Below are positions 735 through 47,287 of a stretch of DNA of 64,000 nucleotides, in pieces; the first letter of the stretch is position 1, and each line of letters begins with the position of its first letter. Source of the stretch: Octopus vulgaris (Eukaryota); assembly GCA_951406725.2 (NCBI GenBank), contig OX597827.1, forward strand, positions 7,068,001 through 7,132,000, in the 5' to 3' direction. The translations under genes and the position numbers were made by a program. The notes under the pieces were generated by a model. That model was not told the DNA's origin. It saw only the letters and a list, made by a program, of their open reading frames with translations, and ran no database searches.

Positions 735-769
<35 letters not shown>

Positions 770-2278: not shown

Positions 2279-2560
2279 CAACAGTTGTAAGTTGTTTATA
2301 CAGTTGTTACTGTGTTATTACAGTGTTCTGATAACAAAGTTGTAGCAATAGTTCTGAGTAGTTTGGTATGTAATAGTTTTATATAGTTCTCTCAAGTTCG
2401 TTGTGTAGTATGTAATGTGTGTTGTAGCCAATGACAAGCTGTCTATTATTCCAGTGCAAGGAAACGGAAATACAGCCTCCAGTTCTTGCAGTAAATGATG
2501 GGCTGACTCACAAAATATTTCACTTAGACAAACTCTTATTTAGACACATACATATACATG
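2279..2560 (-). promoter_or_regulatory. Conserved promoter block and non-coding first exon of a sixth protocadherin (coding exon off the left edge)
   Basis: 68-bp core 2457-2524 nearly identical to five other copies; TGACTCA 2504-2510; Inr-like TCATTT near 2496; donor TTG|gtaagt at 2279. Confidence 0.7.
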
Positions 2561-3384
2561 TGTGTGGTGAGAAAGTACACAACTAAATGGTTGAAAATAG
2601 GTTTTAAAGCTATGAAATATAAAATATCATATTTTAAAAATATGTTAGATTTTAAATTTAAGAGAGAAAAATTATTTTCTAACTTCAGTCAAAGTTACAA
2701 AACTTTTTATCTGAACTTCCACTTTGGTTTTACAAAATTATTTGCTTGAGACATCCTTAGAAAATGTAATTAAATGATATTTTGATGTGTTGATTTCATA
2801 AGATAAGTATTGATCTCATTTGAAAATATGTAATTATGGCTCCAAATAATTATGTTGAATGATGATTAGAATAGGGGTAATTCTTATTGGTATTTCTAGT
2901 TGAGAACTAATACTTTTGAAAAGGAAATAAATCTTTGTAAATTTCACATTTGAAACCTAAAATAAATATCCATTAAAATTGAAGCTTCTTCATTAAAAGA
3001 AGATCTGAATTCATTTCTAATATATTCATATGTCATGCATTCAATTTTCTATATTTTTCATTTCTGTCCATTTATTTCATTATTTATTTTTTTTGTTTGT
3101 CTTGGAAACTCCCATTTCACTTATCAACAAATCAATATTGCATATCGTTTTAACATAATAAATTATTCTTGAAAATTTGGACACAGAGTTAAATCTTTTG
3201 TTTATTTTTACAACATATCAAAAATATTTCAAAGAAGGAAATTATCATTGCCATTTTTTAACTTAAATAGAAATGTTTCTATTTCAGATTGGTTATAATT
3301 TCCATACTTTATCTTATCGTCAATGATTCTAACATGAAAATGACCAGAGAGTATGAAGAATAGGTGTGTTATATATTTCTTGCA

Positions 3385-3388
<4 letters not shown>

Positions 3389-3450
<62 letters not shown>

Positions 3451-3470
3451 GTATATATATATATTTATGT
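3389..3470. repeat. (TA)n microsatellite
   Basis: Direct reading. Confidence 0.95.
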
Positions 3471-4085
3471 ATATTCAGTTACCTTCAGTAAATATATTCT
3501 GATGGCTTCCATAACACTTATGGTGCTAAGTTCCTCCAAGCAAATTTTAGTAGGTATCAGTTGGTAATTTGGAAGAATATTTCATTATTAATTATACTAG
3601 TAATTCCAAATAGTTTGGTAATACTGTCATATTTTCTATCGTTATTCTTTGATGTGAATGAATTGACTTCAGTTAAAGATTAAAGAAAGCAAAATAAAAA
3701 GTCCTAATTGGTGAAAATTTATCGTAAGTTTATAAGTTCAACAAATGTTAGGTCAACGTTATATAACTTTTGTAAAATATATTCCAAAATATATCTTGAT
3801 CAAATATTAACATTAAAGTACTTTATAATTACTTTTAAGGTTTTCATTAAAATATTTGCTGTAATATACAAACTCTACTTTTACATAAGGTAAAGTTATT
3901 ATTGGTAGTGTTACTAGTAAGAGTAAGTTAAATTATGTGATTATCGAAAGAAGACCCTGGAAAATGACGAGCTAAGTTATAATTTGAACTTAGTAAGAAG
4001 ACAAACATAAAATGGTGCAAGGTTTTTTGACAGGTATTGTTCTGGTTTGGCAACTTCCTACCATTAATTACTAAATATTTTAGCA

Positions 4086-4378
4086 TTAGATATGCGATAT
4101 CGATAGAGGAGGTACCTCAGGTATTGTTGTTACTTTAGGTACAGCTGGTAGAGGTGGTTTACAGATAGAAGTGAAGGCACTTGTCATTGGTACTGAAGAT
4201 GGTTGTTCACTTATATTGGATGTGGTCCCAGTTATAGTCAAAGGTATTTGGTCGAGGTGACTAGAATTGTTAACATTTGGTTGATAGCAATAATTGTTAT
4301 CTCCCCTTGATCTGTTGATAGTGTGTGGAAGTTGATTTCTCCTATTCCATGTGTGATCACTTTGGTAACGACACAGAT
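4086..4378 (-). CDS. PCDH: Protocadherin gene 1, terminal coding exon (DLCRYQSD...PMTSAFTSICKPPLPAVPK...SHI*)
   Basis: tttccag acceptor; phase-1 frame matches exon 2 and is open to TAA at 4086-4088; homologous exon in the other four units. Confidence 0.85.
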
Positions 4379-5060
4379 CTGGAAATATATCGATTTATAG
4401 TTTAGCTTTCATAAGATTTTTATGCACTATAAATCGAAGTAAAATTTCTTATGAAGGTTGTTAGTAATGAATAATCGAAGTATGAATAACGTCTACTACG
4501 AAGATATGATTTCGTTTCACATTCAAAATAAGAATAAATGTTCCAAGTGTCTGAAAAGAACGATATTCGGTAATAATATTTTATATATTTATAAATGAGT
4601 GTGCGTGTGTGTGCATAGCACTGCTGGAGCATGGTATAAACTACCTGCATCAGATGTTAGCTGTCTAGACATTACATCCTTCAAAATTTCCATACACCTT
4701 GCAATTCGCTAACAGTACACCCCACACCGTTTCATTGTTTTTTTAAAGAATTTCTCACTGTTCACTTCTTGTGCGTATTCTGTGTACTGTTCATGCTTTC
4801 TCTTACGAGTGGTACACTCTTTGATGAGTAGTAGTGCACCTAAGCACTGTATATATACAAGAAGTTCATTATATTATATTACACTTCTCTCTCTTCCTCT
4901 CTAACAAACATTCTTTCAAAAAGAAATCGATTATATTCAGACCTGGAGAGGTATGTGGTCTACAAGGTTTAAAATCTCCAGGTCACACTACATCTCATAA
5001 TGACACCCTCCATTTATATCAGTCTTTAAGGGTACCCCCATAACCACCACACACACAGAC

Positions 5061-5063
<3 letters not shown>

Positions 5064-5139
<76 letters not shown>

Positions 5140-5142
5140 GTA

Positions 5143-5175
<33 letters not shown>
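5064..5175. repeat. Compound (TG)n(TA)n(TATG)n microsatellite
   Basis: Direct reading. Confidence 0.95.
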
Positions 5176-5176
<1 letters not shown>

Positions 5177-5504
5177 GTGGTAGGGTTCTCCTTTACAAAA
5201 GTAAAATTAGTAATTTCCTTGCAAAGAAAATTATATAAATGGCATAAGCATTGGCATGGCTGTGTGGGTAAGAATTTCACTTGTCAATCCAATGGCTTCT
5301 AATTTAATCTCACTGCATGGAACCCAGGGTAAGTGCCTTATAACACAGCCCTAGACTGACAAAAGCTTTGTGAATGTTGAATGGAAACTGCCGAAAAAAA
5401 AAGATTGTGTGCATGTGTTTGGGGTGAGTACTTATGTGGCCTTGACTTGATGTCATGTGATAGTTGTCAACAACCATCAGAATCACACAAGCGATGTTGT
5501 GCTT

Positions 5505-5554
<50 letters not shown>

Positions 5555-5853
5555 AATTATTGTATGCAGTGCTCAGGTGCACCACAACTTGTCAAAAGTG
5601 TGTATAAAGCATATGTATTTCTAGTATTTCATTAAAAAAAGCATTTTAAGCCTTCTGGAAAGGATGTCTTTTTTGGACACAAATGACGATTAGTGACAGG
5701 ATGGACATCAGGCATAAAAAGCAGGTTTTGTTCAGCTCATACAACCATTGAAGCAGGAACATTAAAACTAATGATGATGGTAACTGACTGTATTAAAATA
5801 CATTTACAAATTATTAGAGTATATTGTAAAAATATTCAGTACCACTAACTTAC

Positions 5854-6004
5854 CTGGCAGTTCCTCATAATGTCCAGCACTACTGACACTCCAGCCATGA
5901 CCACTATCAGTGAGAGATGACAATGTTGACATCTCATTGAATTGGTCAAAACTGTTTAATTCTCTGTAACCCGGAGTCATACTCTCTTCTTTTGGTACAA
6001 ACAT
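5854..6004 (-). CDS. PCDH: Protocadherin gene 1, cytoplasmic exon 2 (MFVPKEE...TDSGHGWS...HYEELP)
   Basis: ttttag acceptor, G|gtaagt donor, 151 nt, phase 0 to phase 1; conserved in all five units; CM1-like DSGHG motif. Confidence 0.9.
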
Positions 6005-6291
6005 CTAAAATAGTAGAAAAAATCCAATGCATTCCATAATAATTCTAGTTTTGTGTGCATATTATTAGGTGTAACATCAAGTATAACCATTTATATAGAT
6101 CATATTAATTATCATGTTAGTTAGTATAAAATTTTAAACAGTAATCTAGAATCTTCATCTTTGAAATTAGAACTGATCAAATGTGATTAACCATATTCTT
6201 TTATATTCTGTGGAAGTACTCCTAAAGTTCTCAAGAAATTTCTTCAAATTTCATGCTACTACTGGAATTTAAAAAGTGAATATTATCTCAC

Positions 6292-8688
6292 CTGTTCATG
6301 TTGTCTTAATGTCCGATTATCCCATCTATCACTTGGCATGGTTCTGCAGTAAGTATCTTCCTTATAAACCTGTGATTCTTGAGATGGCTTCAGATTTCTC
6401 GACATTGTGTACGAAATGCCAGGTGGAACACAGGTAGGATCAAATATATATTTTGATTGTACGTTTAATGCAGGTGTAACCTTGTGGTACATATCAACAC
6501 TGTTGTTATAGTTGCTGTCTGTCTGCTTCAGTCTATGAACTATACAGATCGATATAGAGATCACTATGACAACTGATACGATCACAGCTGCTACAACAAT
6601 AACAATCATCACATTCAATTGGAGACCATTACTTGATTCTGTTGTTGTCTTCGAAGGGGTCTTAAATATCTTTGATGTGCTGTTACTAACTGTTAGAGTC
6701 AAAGACAAAGTTGTTGTCGATGACAGAACTGGACTGCCACTGTCTTTCACACCTAATTCCAGTTCATAGAATCCAGCATCATTTTGGTAAAGTGAGCGAG
6801 AGAAAGATAAGACACCAGAGTGATGGTTCATTTGAAATAAGTGTTTCTCATTACCTCTGAGTATTTCATATGTGAGGAAGGCATTGTGTTGACTGTCTCT
6901 GTCAGAGGCCCTAACAACTGTGATATCCTGGTCAGAGTGGGGATGGTAGTGGACATTAAGACTGAAAGGGTCAACATTAGGGAAACTGAAATAGGGAGCA
7001 TTGTCATTTAAATCCATAACCTCAACAACAACATTTGCTCTCTTCTCCAGTGATGGTGTTCCTTTATCTTTTACTAAAACCTTAAACTCATATAGGTTCT
7101 TTTCTTCTCTGTCTAGGGACTCAGTTGTGGAAATGAATCCCACATCAGATATCTGAAATGGTAGAATATCTTTTCCATTAGATAATAGAGAATAGGTTAA
7201 TTGCCCTCCATCTCCAATATCTGGGTCTGTGGCATTGACTTGTCCAACAGGGAAGTCTTTGTGTTCATTTTCATAGGTGAGAAACTTAAATATGTCCTGA
7301 CTAAACTGAGGTTGTACATCATTTATGTCAGTAACCAGCATAGAAAACTGTTTCTCTACTTTCAATGGAGGTAAACCATTATCTTGACATTTAATGGTGA
7401 AATTAAATCTTTTCTCACTCTCTCTATCTATTTCACTCTTGACAACAACTTTGTATTTCGTTTCAGACTCTGAGATTAGCTGAAGGTATCTGTTTTGTAA
7501 ATGACAGTTCACTTGTCCATTTACTCCATTGTCATTGTCGGTAACTTTGACATAAGCAACAAAACTGCCAATTTTAGATGCTTCTGAGATGACAGCTGTT
7601 TTTCCAGTTGACTTAATGACAAATCTGAAGTCAATGTTTGGTGGATTGTTAAGATGAGTGATTCCATTTATTAGAACAGTAACAGTTGAGGACATAGGTG
7701 GTTTACCATTATCTCTGGCTTCAATAAATAGCTCATAAATTTTACCAAAATTAAAGTCTTTCTTCAAAAATACTTCTCCTGTTGCTTCATCTAATTGAAA
7801 GTACTCTTTTACCATTTTGGGTGTTTTAGCATTATTGAAGACATAAGAAATTCTTCCATTTTCTCCTACATCTAAATCTGTAGCAGACAACCTTACAACA
7901 GGTTTGTTTACATCATGTTTATCATTTATAGTGACATTGTAAATATTCTGGGAGAATACAGGGTAGTTATCGTTTTTATCTTCTACAAATATTTTTATAT
8001 CCAGTACACCTTCCTTTGATGGAGATCCTTCATCTTTAGCAATTAACCGAATATTGTAAATGTCTTTTGTCTCACGGTCCAAGTTACCCTCCAAAATTAG
8101 TTGTAATAGATCTGTTCCATCTGGTTTTTTAGAAACAAACACCTGAAATGGTATATCCACTTTCTCTTTGAGTTGGTAAGTTAGCTTAGAATTCTGAATG
8201 CTAATATCATTATCAATGGCATTTGGAAGTGTTTCTTTTCTTCCTTTTGTCATACTTTCATCATATTTTAAATGAAATTCTTTGTTTGGGAAAATAGGAT
8301 AATTATCATTGACATCTTCTATCATAACTTTGATTTCTAATATCTTAATAACAGAATGGCCTTCTTGAAGTGCCATTTCTAATATCCTGAAACATTCCAC
8401 ATTATATTGACATAGAGATTCTGCATCCAATATGGCAGCTGTGTACAGTTTTCCTCCAGGTGTAACATTGAATAACTGAACATTTTCCTCAGTACTACCC
8501 TGGAGTACATTAAATGTCAGTTTGTTGTTATCATCTTGAGTCTGCATATTATCCAATAAGTGTGTATCAGTGACAATATCTCCAATATAGCTGTGTATAT
8601 CATTGTTCTCTTTTACATGGTAGATATGGTCCACACACAGACAGCTTTCAGCTATCAATAGCAAAGCCAATAATTTCATTGGAAACAT
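6292..8688 (-). CDS. PCDH: Protocadherin gene 1, large coding exon (signal peptide, EC1-EC6, TM, juxtamembrane); spliced product ~946 aa
   Basis: 801-aa ORF with cadherin motifs (DVNDNYP, LDRE, DKNDNYP, DINDVQP, DLNDNAP, AxDxD), EC1 C-x5-C (LCQYNVEC) and TM VMIVIVVAAVIVSVVIVISISICIV; acceptor ttttcag before 8695; donor CAG|gtgaga at 6292. Confidence 0.97.
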
Positions 8689-8984
8689 TTTTGAACTGAA
8701 AAAAAAAAAAAATTTGACTTGAAATTCATATTAAAAAATGTGAATATAATAAATATAATGTAGCTTTTAATTCCATGAATTCAATCTCTAGTTTTAATTT
8801 GGTTTATGATATACTTATCAGAGAGAAAAAGATGTGTGTTTCCTTGTTCCCCTTTTATGTGACTGGTCGGTATTTCAAGAGTAACATCAGTCAGACATCA
8901 GCAACAATAAACATAGAAGTGCTGACATCAATCAAATTATTTGATGGAATTTGATTAACTTGCCTGAAATGAAAGCATATATAT

Positions 8985-9141: not shown

Positions 9142-9193
<52 letters not shown>

Positions 9194-11124: not shown

Positions 11125-11415
11125 CAACAGTTGTCAGTTGTTTATATTGTTGTTAATGAACTTTTTCAAAGTTCTGGCAACACAAAGTTTTAATAGTGGC
11201 AGTAGTTCTGAGTAGTTTGGTATGTAATAGTTTTATATAGTACTATCAAGCTGGTTGTGTAGTATGTAATGTGTGTTGTAGCCAATGACAAGCTGTCTTT
11301 TATTCCAATGCAAGGAAACGGAAATACAGCCTCCAGTTCTTGCAGTAAATGATGGGCTGACTCACAAAATATTTCACTGAGACACACTCATGTATAGATA
11401 CATACATATACATGT
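11125..11415 (-). promoter_or_regulatory. Promoter block and non-coding first exon of gene 1
   Basis: Core 11311-11378; donor TTG|gtaagt at 11125, ~2.4 kb above the coding-exon acceptor. Confidence 0.75.
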
Positions 11416-29416: not shown

Positions 29417-29705
29417 CAACAGTTGTCAGTCGTTTATACAGTTGTTACTGTATTGTTTCAGTGTTCTGGTAACAAAGATATGGTACTAGCAGAAGTTCTG
29501 AGTAGTTTGGTATGTGACAGTGTTATGTAGTTCTATGGAGTTGGTTGTGTAGTATGTAATGTGTGTTGTAGCCAATGACAAGCTGTCTTTTATTCCAGTG
29601 CAAGGAAACGGAAATACAGCCTCCAGTTTTTGCAGTAAATGATGGGCTGACTCACAAAATATTTCACTAAAACACACTCATGTATAGATACATACATATA
29701 CATGT
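29417..29705 (-). promoter_or_regulatory. Promoter block and non-coding first exon of gene 3
   Basis: Core 29601-29668; donor at 29417. Confidence 0.75.
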
Positions 29706-31126
29706 GTGTGGTGAGAAGAAACCCAGATAAATGGATGGAAATATTAATAAGGTTTTAAGTAATGAAATATAAAATTAAAGTATATTAAAAATATATCATA
29801 TTTTAATTTTATGGTAGAAAAATTATTTTCTAACTTCAGTCAAAGTTGCAAAACTTTTTATCTTATATTTCCCTCTGGTTTTACAAAATTGTTTGCTTGA
29901 AACATCCTTAATAAATGTTATTAAATAATATTTTTAGAAGTTAATTTCATTAAATAATTGTTGAGCTCATTTGAAAATACGAAATTATGGCTCCAAATAA
30001 TTGTGTTGAATAATGATTGCAATATGGTTTGTTCTTACAAGTGTTCCTATTACAGAACTAATCCTTTTAAAATGGAAATAAAAATTTCTAAATTTCACAA
30101 TTGAAACTTAACATAAATATTTATTAAAATTGAAGCCTATCCATTAAATGTCATTACAAATGGAATTCCTTTCTGATATATATATATAAATATATAAAAT
30201 GTATCTAATTTTCTTTTATTTTTTTTGCCCACCTTTTTGGAAAGCTAATCAATAATGCTTATTTTTTATATTGCTATGAAATGGTAATCTAATGCTGTTA
30301 ACTATTGAAATTATGCAATCTTCAATAGTTTTTCTAAGAAAATTTCTAGAAACTATAATGGAGAATTGTGTTATATATTTTTGTATAGCTTTCCTATGCA
30401 TATACATCCAGATATCTTCAATATATATATATATGCTAGTGGATGTTAAATGATGACGATAATGATATATATATCCTGATAGTTTCAGTAATATACATGG
30501 TTATAAGTTTCTCAGTAAAAACTTTGGTAGATATCAACTGGTAGTTTGTGAGAATATTTCGTTCTTAACTGTACCAGTCATGCCAAATACTTTGGTAATT
30601 CTGTCATATTTTCTTTTGATGATTTCGTGGTGTAAATATATTTACTTTGATTAAAGACTAAATAAGAAAAAAATTATCTATTTTGGTGAAAATGTATCAT
30701 AAATTTATAACTTTAAGAAATATTATGATGATGTTAATATTAATATTAAATTCTTTATAATTACTTTTCATCAACCCCAAAAGGATGAAAGGCAAAGTCG
30801 ACCTCAGTGCAATTTGAAATCAGAACGTAAAGACAGACGAAATACCACTAAGAAATTATAATTCCTTTCCATACTTTCATTCAGGTATTTGTAGTAATAG
30901 ACAAGCTCTACTTTTATATAAGATAAAATCATTTTTGGTATTGTCTCTAGTAAGAGGAAGTAAAATTATGTAAGCTGCTAAAGAAGACTGGCAAATAATT
31001 GGCAAAGTCATCTGTGGTAGAATATGATTTGAAATTAGTACACAAATATAAAATATGGTCAGGATTTTAGGCAGTCCTTGTTCTATTTCTGCTGCTACCT
31101 GTCATTGGTTTCTAAATAGTGCAGCA

Positions 31127-31449
31127 TTAGTTTTGTGGTGTAGATAGAGGTGGTACTTGAGGTATTGAAGGTACCTTTGGTAATGTTGTTACTTTAGGTA
31201 CAGCTGGCAGAAGTGGTTTACAGTTTGAAATAAAGGCACTTGTCATTGGCACCGTAGGTGATTGTTCAGTTGTATTAGATGTGGTCCCAGCTGTAGTGAA
31301 AGGTATTTGGTCGAGATGATAAGAAGGGTTCTTGTCGACATTTGGTTGGTAGGGATAGCCATTGTTGTTATCTCCCCTTGATCTGTCGAGAGTGTGTTGA
31401 GGGTGATTCCTTCTATTCCATGTATGATCACTTTGATAACGACATAGAT
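31127..31449 (-). CDS. PCDH: Protocadherin gene 4, terminal coding exon
   Basis: 323 nt, homologous acceptor, frame and TAA. Confidence 0.85.
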
Positions 31450-31888
31450 CTGGAAGTATATCGATTTATTGGCTGTTTTTTTTTTCAGGCATAATGAATA
31501 AAAGCAAACGGTTTTAAACAGGTTTATAGCAAGGAAAAATCAAAGCATTATATTTTAACAAAAATTAGTATATTTTAACAAAAAAAAAGTTATGCCATGT
31601 ACTGTGATATCTTGGGATTCAAGGGTCCACAGCTATTTAATGTCTCGTCCAAACATCTCAGGGATCTTCATGGAGTGGAGTAGATGTTTTCAAGGAATAA
31701 CTTGACCTCTTGCTATCTACTGTCCCAGATGAAACTGTATTACAGCAGGAAACTCAATAGAGAGCAACAGTGTTGGACTCTTTCCATCACTAAAAGCAAA
31801 TCATGTAAAATTGGCCATTGAAAACATGATTTCAACTTTAGCACAGAATCGTATGAAAAATAAATAAATAAAGTCTCGTTCAGGTGCC

Positions 31889-32240
31889 AGTCCCACTGCG
31901 TGGCACCTTGGGCAAGTGTCTTCTACTATAGCCTCGGGCCGACCAAAGCCTTGTGAGTGGATTTGGTAGATGGAAACTGAAAAGAAGCCCATCATATATA
32001 TGTATATGTATATATATGTGTATATGTGTGTGTGAGTGTTTGTGTGTCTGTGTTTGTCCCCCCAACATCACTTGACAACCGATGCTGGTGTATTTACATC
32101 CCCGTAACTTAGCGGTTCGGCAAAAGACACTGATAGAATAAGTAGTAGGCTTACAAAGAATAACTCCTGGGTTCGATTTGCTTGACTAAAGGCGGTGCTC
32201 CAGCATGGCCACAGTCATATGACTGAAACAAGTAAAAGAG
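31889..32240 (+). mobile_element. 5'-truncated SINE family A in the last intron of gene 4
   Basis: Paralogous to 13690-14030. Confidence 0.8.
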
Positions 32241-32769
32241 TATATGTACAAGTTATACAAGACAAAATTTGCTTTCACTTTTATGGTAAAGGCTCTAGCA
32301 TGGCCGTGTGATGAAGAATTTCACTTCTCAACCACATGATTATAGGTTTAGTCCTCTACTGCTGTCTCAGACAAGTCAAATTCTTTTGAACGATAATACA
32401 AACAGATAAAAGGGTGGAATACAGACACTTTTCTGATAGTATTTATCATTCAAATGTAATAATTGTGTGTTTGTCTCCTGACATTGATAGTTGTCAGCAA
32501 GCATTGGCATCACACATGCTGTAGAATTCATTTCTAAGTTTTCATGAAAGCATGTCCAGCAAATGGGAAAATATTACCTTGCTTGGAAACAGTTGGGGGC
32601 TGGTGACAAAAAGGCAAAAAACGGTCATGAAATATCTGCCTCAAAGAATTTTATTCAACCCATGTTAGTATTCCAAAGTGGATTAAAAAGGATGATGATG
32701 ATGGTAACTAAATATAGACCAACAGATTATCATACTATATTGAAGAAATATTCATTTTTTCTAACTTAC

Positions 32770-32920
32770 CTGGCAGTTCCTCATAGTGTCCAGCACTGCC
32801 GACACTCCATCCATGACCCCTATCAGTGCGAGATGACAATGTTGACATCTCACTGAATTGGTCAGAACTGTTTAGTTCTCTGTAACCAGGAGACATACTT
32901 TCTTCTCTTGGAACAAATAT
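32770..32920 (-). CDS. PCDH: Protocadherin gene 4, cytoplasmic exon 2
   Basis: 151 nt, AG/GTAAGT boundaries, open frame. Confidence 0.9.
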
Positions 32921-33310
32921 CTAAATACAAATATATAGATTCAATGTATCATCATAATGTTAAGGGAATTCCAAAAATATATATGCGTAGAGAAACATCC
33001 ACCTGTCCTCCATATCTATATGCACACACATAAATTCTGCATCATAGTGTCCTCAATATTTCGAAATAGAAATACATAAAATTGAAATAAGATTAAATAT
33101 TGCAAGTAAGTTATGACAATACTTAGAAAGTTTTAGTTGTCAATAGGAGTTGCAGTCAAACAAGAAATAAAATAATTTGCAATAAGAGCTAGAAATAAAA
33201 GATCCATGAATTTAAAGAAATCATATTAAATAAGAAATACCAGAACAAAATATTACTCTGCAAACAACTCGTGATCAACCATTCAAACAACTGGTAATTA
33301 ACTGTCTTAC

Positions 33311-35707
33311 CTGTTGATGCGGTTCAGAGAAAGATGGGTTACCCCAGCTATCATAGGATATAGTTCTGCAGTGAATATCTTCTCTGTCTACCATTGGTTG
33401 TTGGGGTTTCTTCAGATTTCTCTCCATTGTGTACTGAACTCCAGGAGGAACACAAGTAGGATCAAATATATATTTTGATTGGGTGTTTAATGCAGGTGTA
33501 ACCTTGTGGTACATATCAACACTGTTGTTATAGTTGCTGTCTGTCTGCTTCAGTCTATGAACTATACAGATTGATATAGAGATCACTATGACAACTGATA
33601 CGATCACAGCTGCTACAACAATAACAATCATCACATTCAATTGGAGACCATTACTTGATTCTGTTGTTGTCTTTGAAGGGGTCTTAAATATCTTTGATGT
33701 GGTGTTACTAACTGTTAGAGTCAAAGACAAAGTTGTTGTCGATGACAGAACTGGACTGCCACTGTCTTTCACACCTAATTCCAGTTCATAGAATCCAGCA
33801 TCATTTTGGTAAAGTGAGCGAGAGAAAGATAAGACACCAGAGTGATGGTTCATTTGAAATAAGTGTTTCTCATTACCTCTGAGTATTTCATATGTGAGGA
33901 AGGCATTGTGTTGACTGTCTCTGTCAGAGGCCCTAACAACTGTGATATCATGGTCAGAGTGTGGATGGTAGTGGACATTAAGACTGAAAGGGTCAACATT
34001 AGGGAAACTGAAATAGGGAGCATTATCATTTATATCCATAACCTCAACAACAACATTTGCTCTCTTCTCCAGTGATGGTGTTCCTTTATCTTTTACTAAA
34101 ACCTTAAACTCATATAGGTTCTTTTCTTCTCTGTCTAGGGACTCAGTTGTGGAAATGAATCCCACATCAGATATCTGAAATGGTAGAATATCTTTTCCAT
34201 TAGATAACAGAGAATAGGTTAATTGTCCTCCATCTCCAATATCTGGGTCTGTGGCATTGACATATCCAACAGGGAAGTCTTTGTGTTCATTTTCATAGGT
34301 GAGAAACTTAAATATGTCCTGACTAAACTGAGGTTGTACATCATTTATGTCAGTGACCAGCACAGAAAACCGTTTCTCTACTTTCAATGGAGGTGAACCA
34401 TTATCTTGACATTTAATGGTGAAATTAAAGCTCTTCTCTCTCTCTCTATCTATTTCACTCTTGACAACAACTTTGTATTTTTTTCCAGATAATGAGATTA
34501 GCTGAAGATATTTATTGTGTAAATGACAGTTCACTTGTCCATTTACTCCATTGTCATTGTCAGTAACTTTGACATAAGCAACAAAACTGTGAATTTGAGT
34601 TCCTTCTGAGATGACAGCTGTGTTTCCAGTTGACTCTATAACAAATTTAAGATCAATGTTTGGTGGATTGTTGAAATAACTGATTCCATTAATAAGAACA
34701 GTGACAAGTGAAGACAATGAAGGGCTACCATTATCTCTGGCTTCAATAAATAGCTCATAAATTTTACCAAAATTAAAGTCTTTCTTCAAAAATACTTCTC
34801 CTGTTGCTTCATCTAATTGAAAGTACTCTTTTACCATTTTGGGTGTTTTAGCATTATTGAAGACATAAGAAATTCTTCCATTTTCTCCTACATCTAAATC
34901 TGTAGCAGACAACCTTACAACAGGTTTGTTTACCTCGTGTGTATCATTTATAGTGACATTGTAAAAATTCTGGGAGAATACAGGGTAGTTATCGTTTTTA
35001 TCTTCTACAAATATTTTTATATCCAGTACACCTTCCTTTGATGGAGATCCTTCATCTGTAGCGATTAACCGAATATTGTAAATGTCTTTTGTCTCACGGT
35101 CTAAGTTACCTTCCAAAATTAGTTGTAATAGATCAGTTCCATCTGGTTTTTTAGAAACAAACAATTGGAAAGGTATATCTATTTTCTCTTTGAGTTGGTA
35201 AGTTAGCTTAGAATTCTGAATGCTAATATCATTATCAATGGCATTTGGAAGTGTTTCTTTTCTTCCTTTTGTCATACTTTCATCATATTTTAAATGAAAT
35301 TCTTTGTTTGGGAAAATTGGAGAATTATCATTGACGTCTTCTATCATAACTTTGATTTCTAATAACTTGAAGAAAGAATGGCCATGCTGAACAGCAATTT
35401 CTAACATCCTGAAACATTCCACATTATATTGGCACAAAGATTCTGCATCCAATATGGCAGCTGTGTACAGTTTCCCTCCAGGTGTAACATTAAACAACTG
35501 AACACTTCCATCGGTATTACCCTGGAGTATTTTAAATGTCAGTTTGCTGCTCTCAACCTTAGACTGTATATCATCCAATAAGTGTGTATCAGTGATAATA
35601 TCTCCAATATAACTGTGTATATCATTGTTCTCTTTCACATGGTAGGTATGATCCACACACCAGCAGTTATGAACATGGAATAACACCAACAATACACCTG
35701 GAAACAT
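33311..35707 (-). CDS. PCDH: Protocadherin gene 4, large coding exon; spliced product ~956 aa
   Basis: Six cadherin repeats plus TM; ATG 35707; acceptor before 35714; donor CAG|gtaaga at 33311. Confidence 0.97.
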
Positions 35708-36893
35708 TTTCAATCTGAAATAGAATTTTGTATTGATATTAATTAATCAGGTTTTAATACTACAGAGAAATTCTAACTAGAAATTTTGGTACATGAACTT
35801 TATCTTTACATTCATTTTGGATTTGTAGATTTTTAAGAAACTTGAAAGTGTGTATAGAAATGTTCTCTTTAATTTTTTGGATATAATTGATGCATATTTA
35901 GTTGTTATACACCCAAACCAAGAAATAACCCATTGATATTGCAGAGGACAGGTGTAAATTGTTCTCTGGTTTATTTTTTCTATACGACTTCACCTAATAT
36001 AAAAGAAGAGGTATTTCATCACCATTGCCCTCTAAAGTTAACAGCTTTATCAATTTACTTATACAAACTTTCATATTCTACACATGCTTGGTAACTCAGT
36101 TAAATAAATTATTGAAGCATTACCAATTTTTGCTGTATATGCAATAATATACAACTGAGTTCAAGTTGAAGTTTGAACTGGCATTGCATGTCTGAACTAA
36201 ACGAAAGTAAACATGTGGGACAGCTGTGAACATGTGTCTTTGTTTATAAACCACATGTATGTCAAATTGGCTGCTGGTGAAATTGTAATGATGACTAAAA
36301 CCACAATCCAAGTAATTTCTCTTATTTTTGCATTTGGTAAAGTAAACCAAGAGCTCTATCTAAAATTGTGAAGATACAGTGCTGGCTAAAATCTATAGAT
36401 TTTTTTTTTTGTGTTGTATACTTATAGAGTAGCATTAAATATTTAAGATATAAATGATAATGCATGCACACACACACACACACATACATGTATAGGAATG
36501 AGTTTGTGGATATGTGTGTGTGTCTATATGCACATGCACATCATGTAAAGTGTTGTGACCATATTGCCTTAATAAAAAAAAATATAAGCGTGGTATATCA
36601 AGAAACTTAAGAAATTATTAACCTGACATTGATTTTATAGACAGAGCAGACTTATTATTCTTTTATTGTAATGTCTTCTTTCAGGTTGATATGGCTGTTT
36701 TGTCTGAGTTATATTCTTTCCTTTTTACAAGTTACAGTAATTGTATTGTAGTCAAGGATATTTCTTAGGCTATATTGATCCTGGTATTTGAGCAACTTCA
36801 CAAGACACAAAAAGTAGTCTGAGGCTCAAAAGGAAATAAATGAAGTGGAACAAAATACCACCAACATACATATTGGGGTGAAATAGATGGATA

Positions 36894-38392: not shown

Positions 38393-38681
38393 CAACAGTT
38401 GTCAGTCGTTTATACAGTTGTTACTGTATTGTTTCAGTGTTCTGGTAACAAAGATATGGTACTAGCAGAAGTTCTGAGTAGTTTGGTATGTGACAGTGTT
38501 ATGTAGTTCTATGGAGTTGGTTGTGTAGTATGTAATGTGTGTTGTAGCCAATGACAAGCTGTCTTTTATTCCAGTGCAAGGAAACGGAAATACAGCCTCC
38601 AGTTTTTGCAGTAAATGATGGGCTGACTCACAAAATATTTCACTAAAACACACTCATGTATAGATACATACATATACATGT
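38393..38681 (-). promoter_or_regulatory. Promoter block and non-coding first exon of gene 4
   Basis: Core 38577-38644; donor at 38393. Confidence 0.75.
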
Positions 38682-40101: not shown

Positions 40102-40424
40102 TTAGTTCTGTGGTGCTGATAGAGGTGGTACTTGAGGTATTGAAGGTACCTTTGGTAATGTTGTTACTTTAGGTACAGCTGGCAGAAGTGGTTTACAGTT
40201 TGAAATAAAGGCACTTGTCATTGGCACCGTCGATGATGGTTCAGTTGTATTAGATGTGGTCCCAGCTGTAGTCAAAGGTATTTGGTCGAGATGATAAGAA
40301 GGGTTCTTGTCAACATTTGGTTGGTAGGGATATCCATTGTTGTTATCTCCCCTTGATCTGTCGAGAGTGTGTTGAGGGTGGTTTCTTCTATTCCATGTAT
40401 GATCACTTTGATAACGACATAGAT
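40102..40424 (-). CDS. PCDH: Protocadherin gene 5, terminal coding exon
   Basis: 323 nt, homologous acceptor, frame and TAA. Confidence 0.85.
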
Positions 40425-40869
40425 CTGGAAGTATATCGATTTATTGGCTGTTTTTTTTTTCAGGCATAATGACAAAAAGCAAACGGTTTTAAACAGGTTT
40501 ATAGCAAGGAAAAATTAAAGCATTATATTTTAACAAAAAAAAAAGCTATGCCCCAGCTATCCTGTCTAGAGTGAGCGCCATGCTCTGTGATATCTTGGGA
40601 TTCAAGGGTCCACAGCTATTTAATGTCTCGTCCAAACATCTCAGGGATCTTCATGGAGTGGAGAAGATGTTTTCAAGGAATAACTTGACCTCTTGCTATC
40701 CACTGTCCCAGATGAAACTGTATTACAGCAGGAAACTCAGTAGAGAGCAAACAGTGTTGGACTCTTTCCATCACTAAAAGCAAATCATGTAAGATTGGCC
40801 ATTGTAAACATGATTTCAGCCTTAACACAGAATCGTATAAATAAATAAATAAATTCCCGTTCAGGTGCC

Positions 40870-41210
40870 AATCCCACTGCGTGGCACCTTGGGCAAAATC
40901 TTCTATAGCCTCGGGCCAACCAAAGCCTTGTGAGTGGATTTGGTAGACAGAAACTGAAAAGAAGCCCATCGTATATATGTATATATATGTGTATATGTGT
41001 GCGTGAGTGTTTGTGTGTCTGTGTTTGTCCTCCCAACATCGCTTGACAACCAATGCTGGTGTGTTTACATCCCTGTAACTTAGCGGTTCGGCAAAAGTGA
41101 CTGATAGAATAAGTACTAGGCTTACAAAGAATAAGTCCTGGGTTCGATTTGCTCGACTAGAGGCGGTGCTCTAGCATGGCCACAGTCATATGACTGAAAC
41201 AAGTAAAAGA
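40870..41210 (+). mobile_element. 5'-truncated SINE family A in the last intron of gene 5
   Basis: Paralogous to 13690-14030. Confidence 0.8.
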
Positions 41211-41741
41211 TTATATATGTACAAGCTATACAAAGACAAAATTTGCTTTCACTTTTATGGTAAAGACTCTAGCATGGCCGTGTGATGAAGAATTTCAATT
41301 CTCAACAACATGATTATAGGTTTAGTCCTCTACTGCTGTCTCAGACAAGTCAAATTCTTTTGAATGATAATACAAACAGATAAAAGGGTGGAATACAGTC
41401 AATTTTCTGATAGTATTTATCATTCAAAAGTAATAATTGTGTGTTTGTCTCCTGACATTGATAGTTGTCAGCAAGCATTGGCATCACACATGCTGTAGAA
41501 TTCATTTCTAAGTTTTCATGAAAGCATGTCCAGCAAATGGAAAAATATTACCTTGCTTGGAAACAGTTGGGTGCTGGTGACAAGAAGGCAAAAACGGTCA
41601 TGAAATATCTGCCTCAAAGAATTCTATTCAATCCATGTTAGTATTCCAAAGTGGATTAAAAAGGATGATGATGATGGTAACTAAATATAGACCAATAGAT
41701 TATCATACTATATTGAAGAAATATTTATTTTTCTAACTTAC

Positions 41742-41892
41742 CTGGCAGTTCCTCATAGTGACCAGCACTGCCGACACTCCATCCATGACCCCTATCAGTG
41801 CGAGATGACAATGTTGACATCTCACTGAATTGGTCAGAACTGTTTAGTTCTCTGTAACCAGGAGACATACTTTCTTCTCTTGGAACAAACAT
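41742..41892 (-). CDS. PCDH: Protocadherin gene 5, cytoplasmic exon 2
   Basis: 151 nt, AG/GTAAGT boundaries, open frame. Confidence 0.9.
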
Positions 41893-42281
41893 CTAAATAC
41901 AAATATATAGATTCAATGTATCATCATAATGTTAAGGGCATTCCAAAAATATATATGCGTAGAGAAACATCCACCTGTCCTCCATATCTACATACAGACG
42001 CAAAAAAGTGCATCATAGTGTCCTCAATATTTCGAAATAAAAATACATAAAATTGAAATAAGACAAAATATTGCAATTAAGTTATGACCATACTTAGAAA
42101 GTTTTAGTTGTCAATAGGAGTTGCAGTCAAACAAGAAATAATATAATTTGCAATAAGAGCTAGAAATAAAAGATCCATGAATTTAAAGAAATCATATTTA
42201 ATAAGAAATACCAGAACAAAATATTACTCTGCAAACAACTCGTGATCAAACATTCAAACAACTGGTAATTAACTGTCTTAC

Positions 42282-44678
42282 CTGTTGATGCGGTTCAGTG
42301 AAAGATGGGTTACCCCAGCTATCATATGATATAGTTCTGCAGTGAATATCTTCTCTGTCTACCATTGGTTGTTGGGATTTCTTCAGATTTCTCTCCATTG
42401 TGTACTGAACTCCAGGAGGAACACAAGTAGGATCAAATATATATTTTGATTGGATGTTTAATGCAGGTGTAACCTTGTGGTACATATCACCACTGTTGTT
42501 ATGGTTGTTGTTGTCTGTCTGCTTCAGCCTATGAACTATACAGATTGATATAGAGATCACCATGACAACTGATACGATCACAGCTGCTATAACAATAACA
42601 ATCATCACATTCAATTGGAGACCATTACTTGATTCTGTTGTTGTCTTTGAAGGGGTCTTAAATATCTTTGATGTGGTGTTACTAACTGTTAGAGTCAAAG
42701 ACAAAGTTGTTGTCGACGACAGAACTGGACTGCCACTGTCTTTCACACCTAATTCCAGTTCATAGAATCCAGCATCATTTTGGTAAAGTGAGCGAGAGAA
42801 AGATAAGACACCAGAGTGATGGTTCATTTGAAATAAGTGTTTCTCATTACCTCTGAGTATTTCATATGTGAGGAAGGCATTGTGTTGACTGTCTCTGTCA
42901 GAGGCCCTAACAACTGTGATATCATGGTCAGAGTGGGGATGGTAGTGGACATTAAGACTGAAAGGGTCAACATTAGGGAAACTGAAATAGGGAGCATTAT
43001 CATTTAAATCCATAACCTCAACAACAACATTTGCTCTCTTCTCCAGTGATGGTGTTCCTTTATCTTTTACTAAAACCTTAAACTCATACAGGTTCTTTTC
43101 TTCTCTGTCTAGGGACTCAGTTGTGGAAATGAATCCCACATCAGATATCTGAAATGGTAGAATATCTTTTCCATTAGATAAAAGAGAATAGGTTAATTGT
43201 CCTCCGTCTCCAATATCTGGGTCTGTGGCATTGACATATCCAACAGGGAAGTCTTTGTGTTCATTTTCATAGGTGAGAAACTTAAATATGTCCTGACTAA
43301 ACTGAGGTTGTACATCATTTATGTCAGTAACCAGCACAGAAAACCGTTTCTCTACTTTCAATGGAGGTAAACCATTATCTTGACATTTAATGGTGAAATT
43401 AAAGCTCTTCTCACTCTCCCTATCTATTTCACTCTTTACAACAACTTTGTATTTCTTTTCAGACTCTGAGATTAACTGAAGGTATTTATTTTGTAAATGG
43501 CACTTCACTTGTCCATTTACTCCATTGTCATTGTCGTTAACTTTGACATAAGCAACGAAGCTGTGAATTTTTGTTCCTTCTGAGATGACAGCTGCTTTTC
43601 CAGTTGACTTAATGACAAATCTAAAGTCAATGTTTGGTGGATTATTCAAGTGTGTGACACCATTTATTAGAACAGTAACAGTTGAGGACATAGGTGGTTT
43701 ACCATTATCTGTGGCTTTAACAAACACTTTATAGAATCTTCCAAACTGAAATTCTGTTGTTACAAATAGTTCTCCAGTTACTTTATTCAACCGAAAACAT
43801 TCTTTTATCTTATTAGGTGTTTTAGTACTAAAAGTATAAGAAATTCTTTGATTCTCTCCAATATCCGAATCTGTTGCAGACAATCTTAGAACAGGTATGT
43901 TTGTCTGGTGTATATCATTGATAGTGATGTTATAGATATTCTGGGAGAACACTGGGGAATTATCATTTTCATCTTGTACTGATATCATTATATCCAGTAC
44001 ACCTTCCTTTTGCGGAGATCCTCCATCTTTTGCAATCAACTGAATATTATAAATGTCTTTTTTCTCACAATCTAATGTACCTTTTAAAATTAGTTGTAAT
44101 AAATCATTCCCATCTGAATTATTAGATATAAACAATCGAAATGGAATATCTCCACTATCATAGAGTCGATAAATCAGTTTAGAATTTTGAATACTGACAT
44201 CATTATCAATGGCATTTGGAATAATCCTTTTTGAACCTATTAATAGACTTTCTGGTAAATTTATTTGAAATACCTTGTCTAAAAACATAGGATAATTATC
44301 ATTAACATCATCTATTACAACTTTGACTTCTAATATCTTGATAACAGAATGGCCTTCTTGAACTGCTACTTCCAAAATCCTGAAGCATTCCACATTATAT
44401 TGGCACAATGTTTCTGCATCCAATATGGCAGCGGTATACAAGTGTCCTCCAGGTGTAACATTAAATAACTGAACAGTTCCATCTGTACTATCCTGGATTA
44501 CATTAAATATTAGTCTGCTGCTATCACCCTGAGATGGTACAGTATTCAGCAGTTGTGTATCAGTGGCAATATCTCCAATATAGCTGTGTCTATCATTGTT
44601 CTCTTTCACATGGTAGGTATGATCCACACACCAGCAACTTCCAGAAAGAAACAACACCAACAATCCAACTGGACTCAT
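42282..44678 (-). CDS. PCDH: Protocadherin gene 5, large coding exon (divergent EC2-EC3); spliced product ~956 aa
   Basis: 810-aa ORF, six cadherin repeats plus TM; acceptor before 44685; donor CAG|gtaaga at 42282. Confidence 0.97.
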
Positions 44679-44904
44679 TTTCTATCTGAAATAGAGTTTT
44701 ATATCAATATTCATAATTCAAGATTTAATAAATGCAGAGAAAATATGACTGAAAATATCAGTCTATGATACAAGACTGTTGTATTCAACATATTGAACCA
44801 AGAAGCACAGTCATCTGAAATAATTTATTGATCACACAACATGACTGAGGGCAATATGTCAAAAGGTCAGTTTGTCATTGCTAAAGTATATTATCAAATA
44901 ATAA

Positions 44905-45537
44905 TCTTTATATATAAAAGTGAGGTTGTGTGCTGTCTGTCTCCTACGATTTAGATTCCTAACTACTCCCACATTTTGCGGTGCAGTTTAACAAAACCGG
45001 GTATCTTATAGTCGTGATTCATATCGAGCCCTTCTGGGTATTAGCGCGCGTCTACGATTTAAAAAAAAATTTACCATCAATTTTTCCCATTTTTAATGCA
45101 TTTTTGGCATATATAAGGGAAGTAACTCTCTAAAAATGTCTACGATGAGTCAACGTAGTATATATTTATATATAAAAGAGAGGTTGTGTGCTGTCTGTCT
45201 CCTACGATTTAGATTCCTAACTACTCCCACATTTTGCGGTGCAGTTTATCTTATTGTCGTCATTCATATCGAGCCCTTCTATGTATTAGCACACGTCTAC
45301 GATTTAAAAAAAAAATTACCATCATATTTTTCCCATTTTTAATGCATTTTTGGCATATATAAGGGAAGTAACTCTCTAAAAATTTATTATTAAATCTCAG
45401 AACGTAAAAAGCTACATTAACACCCCCCCCACTTTGTGGTTAGCCATGTTGAGATGGCTATTATACTTTACATCTCTAAAAATGCTTATATAGTTATTTC
45501 CCTTACAAACCCGAGCAACGCCGGGCAATACTGCTAG
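44905..45537 (+). mobile_element. Non-autonomous Helitron with internal tandem duplication, intron 1 of gene 5
   Basis: 5' TC, 3' CTAG, subterminal hairpin cccgagcaacgccggg, inserted between A and T with no TSD; head repeated from ~45161. Confidence 0.85.
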
Positions 45538-45824
45538 TGAATAATAATCGTATACAGTGCTCAGGTGCACTGCAACTCATAACAAAAAGTAACCAAAAGG
45601 GCATGAACAGTTCATAAAATAGGCACAGGAAAAGAACAGTGAATAAGTCTCCCCCACCAAAAAAGGACAAAAATCGGGAGAAGAAACGGAGATGGGGTGG
45701 GGCCATCAGGTGTACAGTTGGTGAATTTCAGGGAGCATGGACGATTCCCACCTCCCAGGATGCCAATTATTTCACTTTCTCTATCTCTTACACAATAACT
45801 GTCATTTTAAAATAGAGAAATACC

Positions 45825-46045
45825 TATTTCTTTACTACCCACAAGGGGCTAAACACAGAGGGGACAAACAAGGACAGACAAACGGATCAAGTCGATTATA
45901 TCGACCCCAGTGTGTAACTGGTACTTATTTAATCGACCCTGAAAGGATGAAAGGCAAAGTCGACCTCGGCGGAATTTGAACTCACAACGTAACGGCAGAC
46001 GAAATACCGCTAAGCATTTTGCCCGGTGTGCTAACGATTCTGCCA
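45825..46045 (-). mobile_element. tRNA-derived SINE, family C
   Basis: tggcagaatcgttagc A-box, gagttcaaattcc B-box; copies at 50533-50765, 50880-51080, 63112-63305. Confidence 0.85.
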
Positions 46046-46998
46046 TCATTGTCAGACATCGACTGGTGACAATATCTCATGTTTAAAACGACAATTTGAT
46101 ATATACCAGCCCTTGTATCAACTTCCCAATGTTACATATCTAAACTTCTCCCTGATATTACATTTCTAAACGTGGATCAAGCAGAGATATTAAGAGTTTC
46201 TTCTATTTTTTTGTAACACTACATCAGCACTGACCAAATATACTTGTGGTGCACCTGAGCACTGTATACAATAATTTCATTATTAAATTATAAATAGAAG
46301 TATTTTGAAAGGCAGTTAAGCGAAGAACTTATCGTTTTTTTTTAAAGTATCACATGCCAGAATAAAAGACGGACGTTAAATGATGATGATGATGGCGATT
46401 TCTTCCATACTCTAAGATGCTGTATTTCTTAACTGAAAGGTGTGAGTTGTGGGATATCTGGCTGCTATTTCTAGCAAGTCCAACAACTGCGTAGAACGTC
46501 GACGAATCTTTGGGAGTAATCTCCCTTGCTTTCAAAATTACATCGTGATTCAATTTCTTAAATGTAGAATCTGTCTGATGAAAACAGAATACTTCTTATT
46601 TTGCCATATAAAATAAAAACTTCATAAACCCTTATACAAATATAAAATAATACTGGTACTGTCAGTATATATCTATCAACAGTAACGGATATCATGGCTG
46701 TAGATGATTAGTCTGAGAATATTGTAAAAAAAGAGAAAATAATATATTTTTAAAGAATGTAAATGTTAAAATAATGTTGAATTGTATTTGTATTTTGTTG
46801 ATATTTCTGCCTTAAGTATTTTTTGAAAATATCTTATCAATAATTAACTGAAGGATTTAAAAAAAAATAATAACATTCTTGTACAGGAAGTAATAATGTT
46901 TCCTATTGATGTAGTTTTAAGATGGTGAGGGAGAGAGAAATGAACAAATGTCTAAAGAATCAAATTGTACATCAAAATAACTTTGAATAAATACTTGC

Positions 46999-47287
46999 CA
47001 ACAGTTGTTTATTGTTTATATAGTTGTTGCTGTGCTGTTTCAGGGTTTTGGTAACAAAGTTATATCAGTAGCAGAAGTTCTGAGTAGTTTGGTATGTGAC
47101 AGTGTTATGTAGTTCTATGGAGTTGGTTGTGTAGTATGTAATGTGTGTTGTAGCCAATGACAAGCTGTCTTTTATTCCAATGCAAGGAAACGGAAATACA
47201 GCCTCCAGTTCTTGCAGTAAATGATGGGCTGACTCACAAAATATTTCACTTAGACACACTAATGTATTGATACATACATATACATGT
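46999..47287 (-). promoter_or_regulatory. Promoter block and non-coding first exon of gene 5 (GC donor)
   Basis: Core 47183-47250; donor reads TTG|gcaagt at 46999. Confidence 0.7.

What the first reader, a model, noticed from the sequence alone, without database searches (positions are those of the whole stretch)
2279..47287. Near-invariant ~125-bp promoter/5'-exon element in front of every protocadherin: candidate invertebrate counterpart of the vertebrate clustered-Pcdh CSE
Seen: six copies (cores at 2457, 11311, 20558, 29601, 38577, 47183) of caaggaaacggaaatacagcctccagtt(c/t)ttgcagtaaatgatgggctgactcacaaaatatttcact differ at about one position in 68 bp. The adjoining ~57 bp is also nearly invariant, while flanks of the outer copies diverge clearly. 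It holds an AP-1/MARE-like GCTGACTCA, an Inr-like TCATTT, an ETS-like CGGAAA and a CCAAT, with a conserved splice donor ~180 bp downstream. Known: vertebrate clustered Pcdhs use a shared CTCF-bound CSE for stochastic promoter choice, and cephalopod arrays arose independently. I see no CTCF core here. Inference: a convergent, bZIP-centred shared promoter code that could support promoter choice or activity-dependent expression.
Basis: partly seen in the sequence, partly recalled or inferred. Interest (0 to 1): 0.8.

Follow-up and report, generated by a model that had tools for sequence, protein, structure and literature searches.

The report
Shared switch of octopus protocadherin genes
Tandem octopus protocadherin genes each carry a nearly identical 125-base non-coding block at their front end, which likely works as a shared on-switch kept by selection and gene conversion; it lacks the CTCF motif of the vertebrate promoter-choice element.

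Summary
Six copies of a 125-bp block are invariant at 122 of 125 columns, while the flanks of the older copies are 55-89% alike. The window is an Octopus vulgaris protocadherin sub-array of ~9-kb whole-gene duplicates on the minus strand. Each block ends 121-129 nt before a splice donor, followed by a 2.3-2.9-kb intron and the coding exon.

Identity alone proves little. The EC5-EC6 coding tract is as uniform, even at silent sites, and is homogenised within lineages, which points to gene conversion. Selection is still likely: gene models of a divergent paralogue in O. sinensis and an O. bimaculoides-type record accidentally translate the block and match 33 of 34 core codons.

RNA-type contigs run through the whole block and one stops at the donor, so the proposed start at 2496 is not supported as the only start. 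The block has no CTCF consensus or CGCT box, and the genes share no constant exon, so it is not a CSE.

Best reading: a shared AP-1/ETS/NF-Y-type promoter and first-exon module that likely co-regulates the sub-array. Promoter choice is untested. I found no description in nine literature searches.

The parts
2400..2524 (-). Conserved 125-bp block, copy 1 (its gene lies off the window's left edge)
11254..11378 (-). Conserved block, copy 2 (5' of gene g2)
20501..20625 (-). Conserved block, copy 3 (5' of g3)
29544..29668 (-). Conserved block, copy 4 (5' of g4). AP-1-type site starts at 29654, ETS/IRF-like pair at 29614, reverse CCAAT box at 29576
   Evidence: covered by RNA-type contigs
38520..38644 (-). 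Conserved block, copy 5 (5' of g5)
47126..47250 (-). Conserved block, copy 6 (5' of g6, first gene of the array; no protocadherin coding sequence between it and 61165)
29690..29710 (-). 21-bp invariant CA/TA-rich island just upstream of each block (also at 2546, 11400, 20647, 38666, 47272; only these six in the window)
29417..29543 (-). Rest of the untranslated first exon, up to the donor (first intron base 29416; homologues 2278, 11124, 20373, 38392, 46998). Holds a TATA-like word (canonical in 2 of 6 copies) 30 nt before an Inr-like A at 29499 (2355, 11209, 20456, 38475, 47081)
   Evidence: an RNA-type contig stops at 29417; three gene models splice this donor to the coding exon
29287..29294 (+). 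Perfect ETS-type 8-mer 114-129 nt into intron 1 in all six copies (6 of 8 occurrences in the window)
28915..28927 (+). 13-bp island ~490-530 nt into intron 1 in all six copies (6 of 6 occurrences in the window)
4086..8695 (-). Gene g2: exon 2 8695-6292 (ATG 8688), exon 3 6004-5854, exon 4 from 4378 to the stop ending at 4086
   Evidence: 99.9% to CAI9732434.1
12901..17502 (-). Gene g3: exon 2 17502-15102, exon 3 14713-14563, exon 4 13223-12901
22165..26738 (-). Gene g4: exon 2 26738-24335, exon 3 23954-23804, exon 4 22487-22165; Pfam cadherin repeats
31127..35714 (-). Gene g5: exon 2 35714-33311, exon 3 32920-32770, exon 4 31449-31127
40102..44685 (-). Gene g6: exon 2 44685-42282, exon 3 41892-41742, exon 4 40424-40102
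   Evidence: 99.9% to CAI9732435.1 and CAI9732436.1
6551..7410 (-). EC5-EC6-TM homogenised coding tract (g2 coordinates), the only other tract at 97.6% or more between units 2 and 6

Best explanation
The 125-bp block is a non-coding sequence copied with every gene of one octopus protocadherin sub-array, and it is likely a promoter-proximal transcription-factor module (AP-1-, ETS- and NF-Y-type sites) overlapping the untranslated first exon, which would switch the genes on together rather than pick one. Shown: its position, its near-invariance, the donor downstream and the absence of a CTCF consensus. Indicated by contigs only: that it is transcribed and spliced at that donor. Inferred: purifying selection keeps a ~110-bp core that starts at the AP-1 site; gene conversion between neighbours further evens out the copies; initiation is probably dispersed, with starts upstream of or at the block edge plus a possible TATA/Inr start 45 nt after it; identical modules would give the paralogues the same cell-type or activity input.
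For: (1) It is an island of identity: between the two oldest complete units only the block and the EC5-TM tract reach 97.6% in 125-bp windows, while introns sit at about 40-60%. (2) It is conserved across paralogues and species. The block's open frame is translated by accident in 3 of 331 fetched proteins (P0123 and P0130 of O. sinensis; P0133, 100% identical over 565 aa to an O. bimaculoides model). P0123 and P0133 match 33 of 34 core codons although EC2-3 of P0133 is only 54% identical to g4; P0130 matches 26 of 27. Simulation gives at most one change with P=0.11 at 5% and P=0.017 at 8% nucleotide divergence. The two orthologues share 40 of 41 block codons, 7 of the next 12, and 88% of their coding residues, and they share paralogue-specific variants absent from the window, which within-species conversion would not preserve. 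(3) Motif rarity in 5,000 dinucleotide shuffles: AP-1 P=0.026, NF-Y P=0.022, two ETS-like P=0.003, IRF-like P=0.005. Further 8- and 13-bp islands lie in intron 1 of all six copies. (4) No sense ATG from the block edge to the donor in 6 of 6 copies (expected 4.3-4.9, P=0.002-0.005 for the 4 copies tested; block alone P about 0.03; 0 of 63 control tiles), as expected of a 5' leader. (5) In run X2, contig 20 aligns over 29417-29668 and stops at the donor with 47 letters unlaid, whereas DNA contig X1-5 of similar divergence runs on to 29404; contig 21 covers 29527-29714. (6) Conversion nearby: copies 4 and 6 share a run of 14 polymorphic sites over 29589-29488 (P=0.0007, one of 10 pairs).
Against: No binding, chromatin or reporter data. 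Motif patterns are recalled consensus strings chosen after seeing the sequence, and the copies are one evolutionary sample. Within the window the block is not significantly more invariant than converted silent sites (P=0.12). The cross-species evidence is one paralogue seen through protein translation, so silent changes are invisible. The RNA evidence is contigs only: no strand, start or level, the 'RNA' label is the tool's guess, and I laid 4 of 24 listed runs. No exon 1 to exon 2 joint was among the 15 of 135 joints shown, X2 had no cover on the start of exon 2, and X16 held an intronic piece. Contigs extend 46 and 230 nt upstream of the block, where ATGs resume 13-25 nt from the edge, so read-through from the gene only ~1.5 kb upstream could explain the coverage.
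Confidence: 0.62

Rival explanations
1. Mainly a gene-conversion island: the block is uniform because it is repeatedly copied between neighbours, like EC5-EC6, and most of its bases are not under selection.
For: EC5-6 proteins are 99.2% alike among 12 O. vulgaris rows and 99.2% among 4 Argonauta rows but 82% between the two, while EC2-3 are 55-68% within species. Fourfold sites in that tract are 95-98% alike between window genes. Conversion runs touch the block, and variable sites in the block group the copies inconsistently.
Against: Orthologues in two species share block variants that the window copies lack, and the block frame is more conserved between them (40 of 41) than their protein (88%). 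The same upstream edge (29668) recurs in a divergent paralogue contig in DNA and RNA-type runs. The 8-13-bp intron islands are too short to be kept by conversion (inference).
Confidence: 0.15
2. An RNA-level element: the block is the 5' half of a long leader whose sequence is kept for translation control, localisation or splicing, not for transcription-factor binding.
For: RNA-type contigs cover it; 11 RNA-labelled runs of 5 studies hold 30-40% of the query words, as much as the DNA runs do; ATG depletion on the sense strand.
Against: No Rfam match. Folding is no better than shuffles (z from -0.62 to 0.48 for block folds; z=2.3 for 301 nt). One of 80 predicted pairs shows a two-sided change, and it lies outside the block. 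Double-stranded-type motifs occur in either orientation and also in the intron.
Confidence: 0.12
3. A functional CSE counterpart: identical promoters compete for a shared distal enhancer, or interfere through read-through, so that each neuron expresses a random subset.
For: Head-to-tail genes with identical 5' modules, variable EC1-4 and uniform EC5-6 resemble the vertebrate design. Read-through across octopus protocadherin genes is mentioned in the methods of 10.1101/2022.01.24.477459 (passages).
Against: No CTCF consensus or CGCT box, and only 1-2 CpG between the donor and 300 nt upstream of the block. No shared constant exon (PMC9068888 passages). Octopus promoters have scant methylation (PMC9476566 passages). 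Single-cell data describe protocadherins as ubiquitous or cell-type-enriched, though that study did not test stochastic choice.
Confidence: 0.1

Closest known systems
Vertebrate clustered-Pcdh conserved sequence element (CSE)
   Same: A conserved non-coding element at a fixed place in front of each member of a tandem protocadherin array (PMC7811963 and PMC4978886, passages).
   Different: The CSE has a CGCT box, binds CTCF and lies ~200 bp before the ATG. This block is 125 bp long, has no CTCF consensus or CGCT, sits 2.4-3.0 kb before the ATG across an intron, appears to be transcribed, and belongs to whole-gene duplicates.
Xenopus pcdh-gamma2 15-36 13-bp promoter motif
   Same: A sub-array-specific, uncharacterised shared motif in protocadherin promoters that lack the CSE (PMC4978886 passages).
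   Different: 13 bp against 125 bp; vertebrate variable-exon architecture; no sequence relation was tested.
Domain-restricted gene conversion in vertebrate clustered Pcdhs (for example zebrafish Pcdh2ab)
   Same: Lowest silent divergence in EC5/EC6 and highest in EC2/EC3 (PMC4978886 passages); the same pattern is seen here.
   Different: Independent origin in octopods. PMC9068888 proposes homogenisation by gene conversion in general, and the passages I saw do not resolve it by domain.
Chelicerate sDscam tandem 5' cassettes
   Same: An invertebrate array in which each repeat has its own promoter (PMC4835542 passages).
   Different: Those cassettes splice to shared exons; no occurrence of 'conserved sequence', 'CSE' or 'CTCF' was found in that text.
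Proximal promoter with AP-1, ETS and NF-Y sites ahead of TATA/Inr (recalled textbook layout)
   Same: CCAAT at -77 and a TATA-like word at -30 relative to an Inr-like A, at identical spacing in all six copies.
   Different: The TATA word is canonical in 2 of 6 copies only, and contigs show RNA upstream of that A.

Membership tests
Vertebrate Pcdh CSE | CTCF-binding site with a CGCT box | tested here: not met
   Best match to a recalled 14-nt consensus has 3-4 mismatches between the donor and 300 nt upstream of each block; CGCT count is 0 in 6 of 6. None of the 10 two-mismatch hits in the window lies in a block; 7 share a near-identical word, most of them inside one dispersed repeat. Binding itself was not tested.
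Vertebrate Pcdh CSE | About 200 bp upstream of the ATG of the variable exon | tested here: not met
   The block ends 121-129 nt before a donor, followed by a 2.3-2.9-kb intron.
Vertebrate Pcdh CSE | Present before nearly all members of all clusters | not testable with these tools
   No genome is held. Seen in six window copies and one further paralogue of the same sub-family.
Vertebrate Pcdh alpha/gamma clusters | Variable first exons spliced to shared constant exons | tested here: not met
   Each of the five complete units has its own exons 3 and 4 and its own stop.
Vertebrate Pcdh CSE | Methylation-sensitive looping to a distal enhancer and stochastic single-cell choice | not testable with these tools
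   No chromatin or single-cell data are available through the tools.
Dispersed repeat (SINE or other TE) | High copy number, unlinked to genes | tested here: not met
   A profile search finds six strong hits, all in register with the units; the next best has E=0.037. Depth in DNA runs is about twice the coding bin and far below the repeat bins (summed contig depth is not a copy number).
Structured RNA or pre-miRNA | Rfam match, unusually stable fold, covariation | tested here: not met
Coding exon or uORF | Start codon, open frame into the coding exon, excess of silent changes | tested here: not met
   One frame is open for 41 codons, but the block has no ATG, all three variable sites change the residue, and the frame hits a stop before the donor in 6 of 6 copies. 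Two searches with the peptide found no homologue among cluster representatives.
TATA/Inr promoter with upstream CCAAT box | TATA at about -30 and CCAAT at about -60 to -100 from a mapped start (spacing recalled) | tested here: inconclusive
   Spacing fits in 6 of 6 copies and the TATA word is canonical in 2 of 6. No start was mapped; contigs extend upstream.

The most novel reading that the evidence does not exclude
This sub-array is a CTCF-free, convergent neuronal barcode. A dozen or more genes carry interchangeable AP-1/ETS-driven promoters and conversion-homogenised EC5-EC6 domains (the cis-pairing domains in vertebrate clustered protocadherins) but diversified EC1-EC4. Neurons pick subsets by promoter competition or read-through interference, and the products pair freely in cis.
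Probability: 0.1. Interest if true: 0.82.

Novelty: new member of a known kind. Interest (0 to 1): 0.42.

Why it matters
How cephalopod protocadherin arrays are regulated is open, and I found no promoter element described for them in nine searches. This block gives a defined ~110-bp target for reporters, ATAC footprints and paralogue-resolved single-cell tests. It also warns that near-identity among these paralogues is partly gene conversion. The EC5-6 uniform, EC2-3 variable pattern mirrors vertebrate clusters and may be as interesting as the block itself.

Tried and rejected
Genome-wide search: no genome is held. Metagenome scan with a 24-mer: 0 hits, uninformative for an animal. Earlier scan findings: nothing in 4 look-ups. 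Rfam: 0 matches. Structured RNA or miRNA: rejected. Coding or uORF role: rejected; those two searches see only cluster representatives and missed even P0133, so they are weak. The block as an internal exon starting at its first AG: the acceptor is weak, contig X2-21 crosses the edge unspliced, and two fused gene models enter at different points, so I did not adopt it. The block as the 3' end of the upstream gene: AATAAA is present in only 4 of 6 copies, and copy 6 has no protocadherin coding sequence within ~14 kb upstream. Three coded organisms hold the query words, but the two DNA runs laid are ~94-97% alike to the window even in intron 1, so this is no test of deep conservation. Gaps in RNA cover and depth ratios were not used as evidence of level. 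The supplement of PMC6339937 (1 file) had no hit for the 24-mer, 'promoter' or 'UTR'. The 2015 genome paper is not held, and Wang and Ragsdale 2017 was not read; either, or bioRxiv supplements that I did not see, could mention the element.
Full report
Setting. The window holds five complete minus-strand protocadherin genes in ~9-kb tandem units. g6 and g2 are 99.9% identical to annotated Octopus vulgaris proteins. Each gene has a large exon 2 (signal peptide, cadherin repeats, TM), its own 50-codon exon 3 and its own exon 4 with a stop, so there is no shared constant exon, in line with PMC9068888 (passages). g6 is the first gene of the array; the last exon of an unrelated O. vulgaris protocadherin (P0117) lies at 61413-61165. 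Fetched O. vulgaris proteins add up to nine more units with the same EC5-6 (some may be isoforms), so the sub-array probably has a dozen or more genes (inference).

Observation. Six gap-free 125-bp copies are invariant at 122 of 125 columns, and flanks of pairs that involve the older copies are 55-89% alike. Copies 3-5 are recent duplicates. A profile search finds no seventh copy in the window. In two DNA runs the block's depth is near that of the coding exon and far below the dispersed repeats, so it is not a common repeat.

Gene conversion. Between units 2 and 6 only two tracts reach 97.6% in 125-bp windows: the block and ~860 bp of EC5-TM. In the coding tract, fourfold sites are 95-98% alike among all five genes, whereas in EC2-3 g6 shares only 61-74% with the others. 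EC5-6 proteins are 99.2% alike within O. vulgaris (12 rows), 99.3% within O. sinensis (15), 94% within O. bimaculoides (6) and 99.2% within Argonauta (4), but 82% between Octopus and Argonauta. EC2-3 are 55-68% within species, and their tree mixes the three Octopus species (five isoform or duplicate records were dropped first, and some duplicates remain). This is concerted evolution restricted by domain, as reported for vertebrate clusters (PMC4978886 passages). The block is not significantly more invariant than those silent sites (3 of 125 against 8 of 109, P=0.12). A conversion run between copies 4 and 6 covers its 3' part and ~55 nt beyond (P=0.0007; 2 of 10 pairs had P<0.001; copy 5 was left out as a near-duplicate of copy 4). 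Near-identity within the window therefore does not prove function.

Selection. One sense frame of the block happens to be open, and 3 of 331 fetched proteins contain its translation: O. sinensis XP_036355489.1 and XP_029644520.2, and P0133, identical over 565 aa to an O. bimaculoides model. They belong to a paralogue whose EC2-3 is 54% identical to g4. From the AP-1 site onward, 33 of 34 codons match in two of them and 26 of 27 in the third, which suggests a nucleotide divergence of a few per cent. The first 12 bp are less conserved. The two orthologues share 40 of 41 block codons, including variants absent from the window, against 7 of the next 12 and 88% in the protein. That pattern fits purifying selection better than within-species conversion, but it rests on one paralogue seen through translation. 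An ETS-type 8-mer and a 13-mer are also kept in intron 1 of all six copies.

Transcription. All three gene models run from the block through the conserved donor into the coding exon; their 5' entries disagree, so these are predictions. Of 24 runs listed, 19 hold 30-43% of 30 query words, 11 of them RNA-labelled from 5 studies. I laid four. Both RNA-labelled runs cover the block and lack most unique intron bins (15 and 19 of 30 bins covered, against 30 of 30 for the DNA runs). In X2, one contig stops exactly at the donor with 47 letters unlaid and continues 230 letters beyond the block's upstream edge; a DNA contig of similar divergence runs through the donor. A second contig crosses the upstream edge by 46 nt. 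Against this: contigs give no strand or start, no exon 1 to exon 2 joint was among the 15 of 135 shown, X2 lacks the start of exon 2, and X16 has an intronic piece. There is no sense ATG between block edge and donor in any copy (P=0.002-0.005; 0 of 63 control tiles; block alone P about 0.03). A second candidate start lies 45 nt after the block, with CCAAT at -77 and a TATA-like word at -30 (canonical in 2 of 6 copies).

What it is not. It has no Rfam match, no unusual fold and no covariation. It is not coding. It is not a CSE: no CTCF consensus or CGCT box, a different position, and no constant exons.

Mechanism. Most likely it is a shared promoter-proximal factor module: an AP-1-type site, paired ETS/IRF-like sites and a reverse NF-Y box, each rare in shuffles (consensus strings recalled and chosen afterwards). 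It was inherited through whole-gene duplication and is kept by selection and evened out by conversion. Identical modules would most simply co-regulate the genes. Published single-cell data describe octopus protocadherins as ubiquitous or cell-type-enriched (10.1101/2022.01.24.477459 passages; PMC9795677 passages). Experience-linked upregulation of three protocadherins is reported (PMC7465212 abstract), but it is not tied to these genes. Stochastic choice is not excluded but has no support here.

Literature seen. Passages of PMC6339937 (plus its one supplement), PMC9068888, PMC7811963, PMC4978886, PMC9795677, PMC4835542, PMC13218726, PMC10084454, PMC9476566 and 10.1101/2022.01.24.477459; the abstract of PMC7465212; listings of nine searches. 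None of these described a cephalopod protocadherin promoter element. The 2015 genome paper and Wang and Ragsdale 2017 were not seen.

Verdict. The block is a real, apparently undescribed, probably selected 5' regulatory module of one octopus protocadherin sub-array. It is an ordinary kind of thing in an interesting place. Interest 0.42.

Noticed in passing
window 6551-7410 and homologous tracts in g3-g6: EC5-EC6-TM is homogenised within lineages (99% within O. vulgaris and O. sinensis, 99% within Argonauta, 82% between) while EC2-3 are 55-68% alike. This mirrors vertebrate clustered Pcdhs, where the fifth and sixth domains mediate cis pairing (PMC10084454 passage).
   Followed up: yes
window 37627-37583 (homologues near 28651 and 19607): Annotated isoform CAI9732435.1 of g6 splices from a donor inside exon 4 to an exon in intron 1 of the next gene, skipping over block 5. 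This is a predicted read-through isoform; the homologous bin had no cover in the two RNA-labelled runs.
   Followed up: partly
window 46998: The exon 1 donor of the first gene is GC rather than GT.
   Followed up: no
window 61413-61165, minus strand: Last exon of another O. vulgaris protocadherin (P0117, 100% over 83 aa), about 14 kb upstream of the array.
   Followed up: partly
genes g2-g6: The units are mosaics: g6 has a divergent 5' half and shared 3' exons, g2 the reverse. g3-g5 have no match of 98% or more among the 331 fetched proteins.
   Followed up: partly
window about 30766-30852, 27918-28200 and 28800: High-copy dispersed repeats. The one at 30766-30852 is relatively far more abundant in the RNA-labelled runs than in the DNA runs, so it may be a transcribed SINE.
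   Followed up: no
window 531-947, 8981-9413, 13687-14033, 22950-23275, 31888-32242, 40869-41213, 54300-54447, 58113-58519, 59583-59984: A ~400-bp dispersed repeat family; several copies carry a two-mismatch CTCF-consensus-like word, roughly one per gene unit. Probably chance, but worth checking against CTCF data.
   Followed up: no
block position 80 (window 2445 and homologues): One of the three variable sites makes or breaks an AATAAA hexamer on the sense strand (present in 4 of 6 copies).
   Followed up: partly
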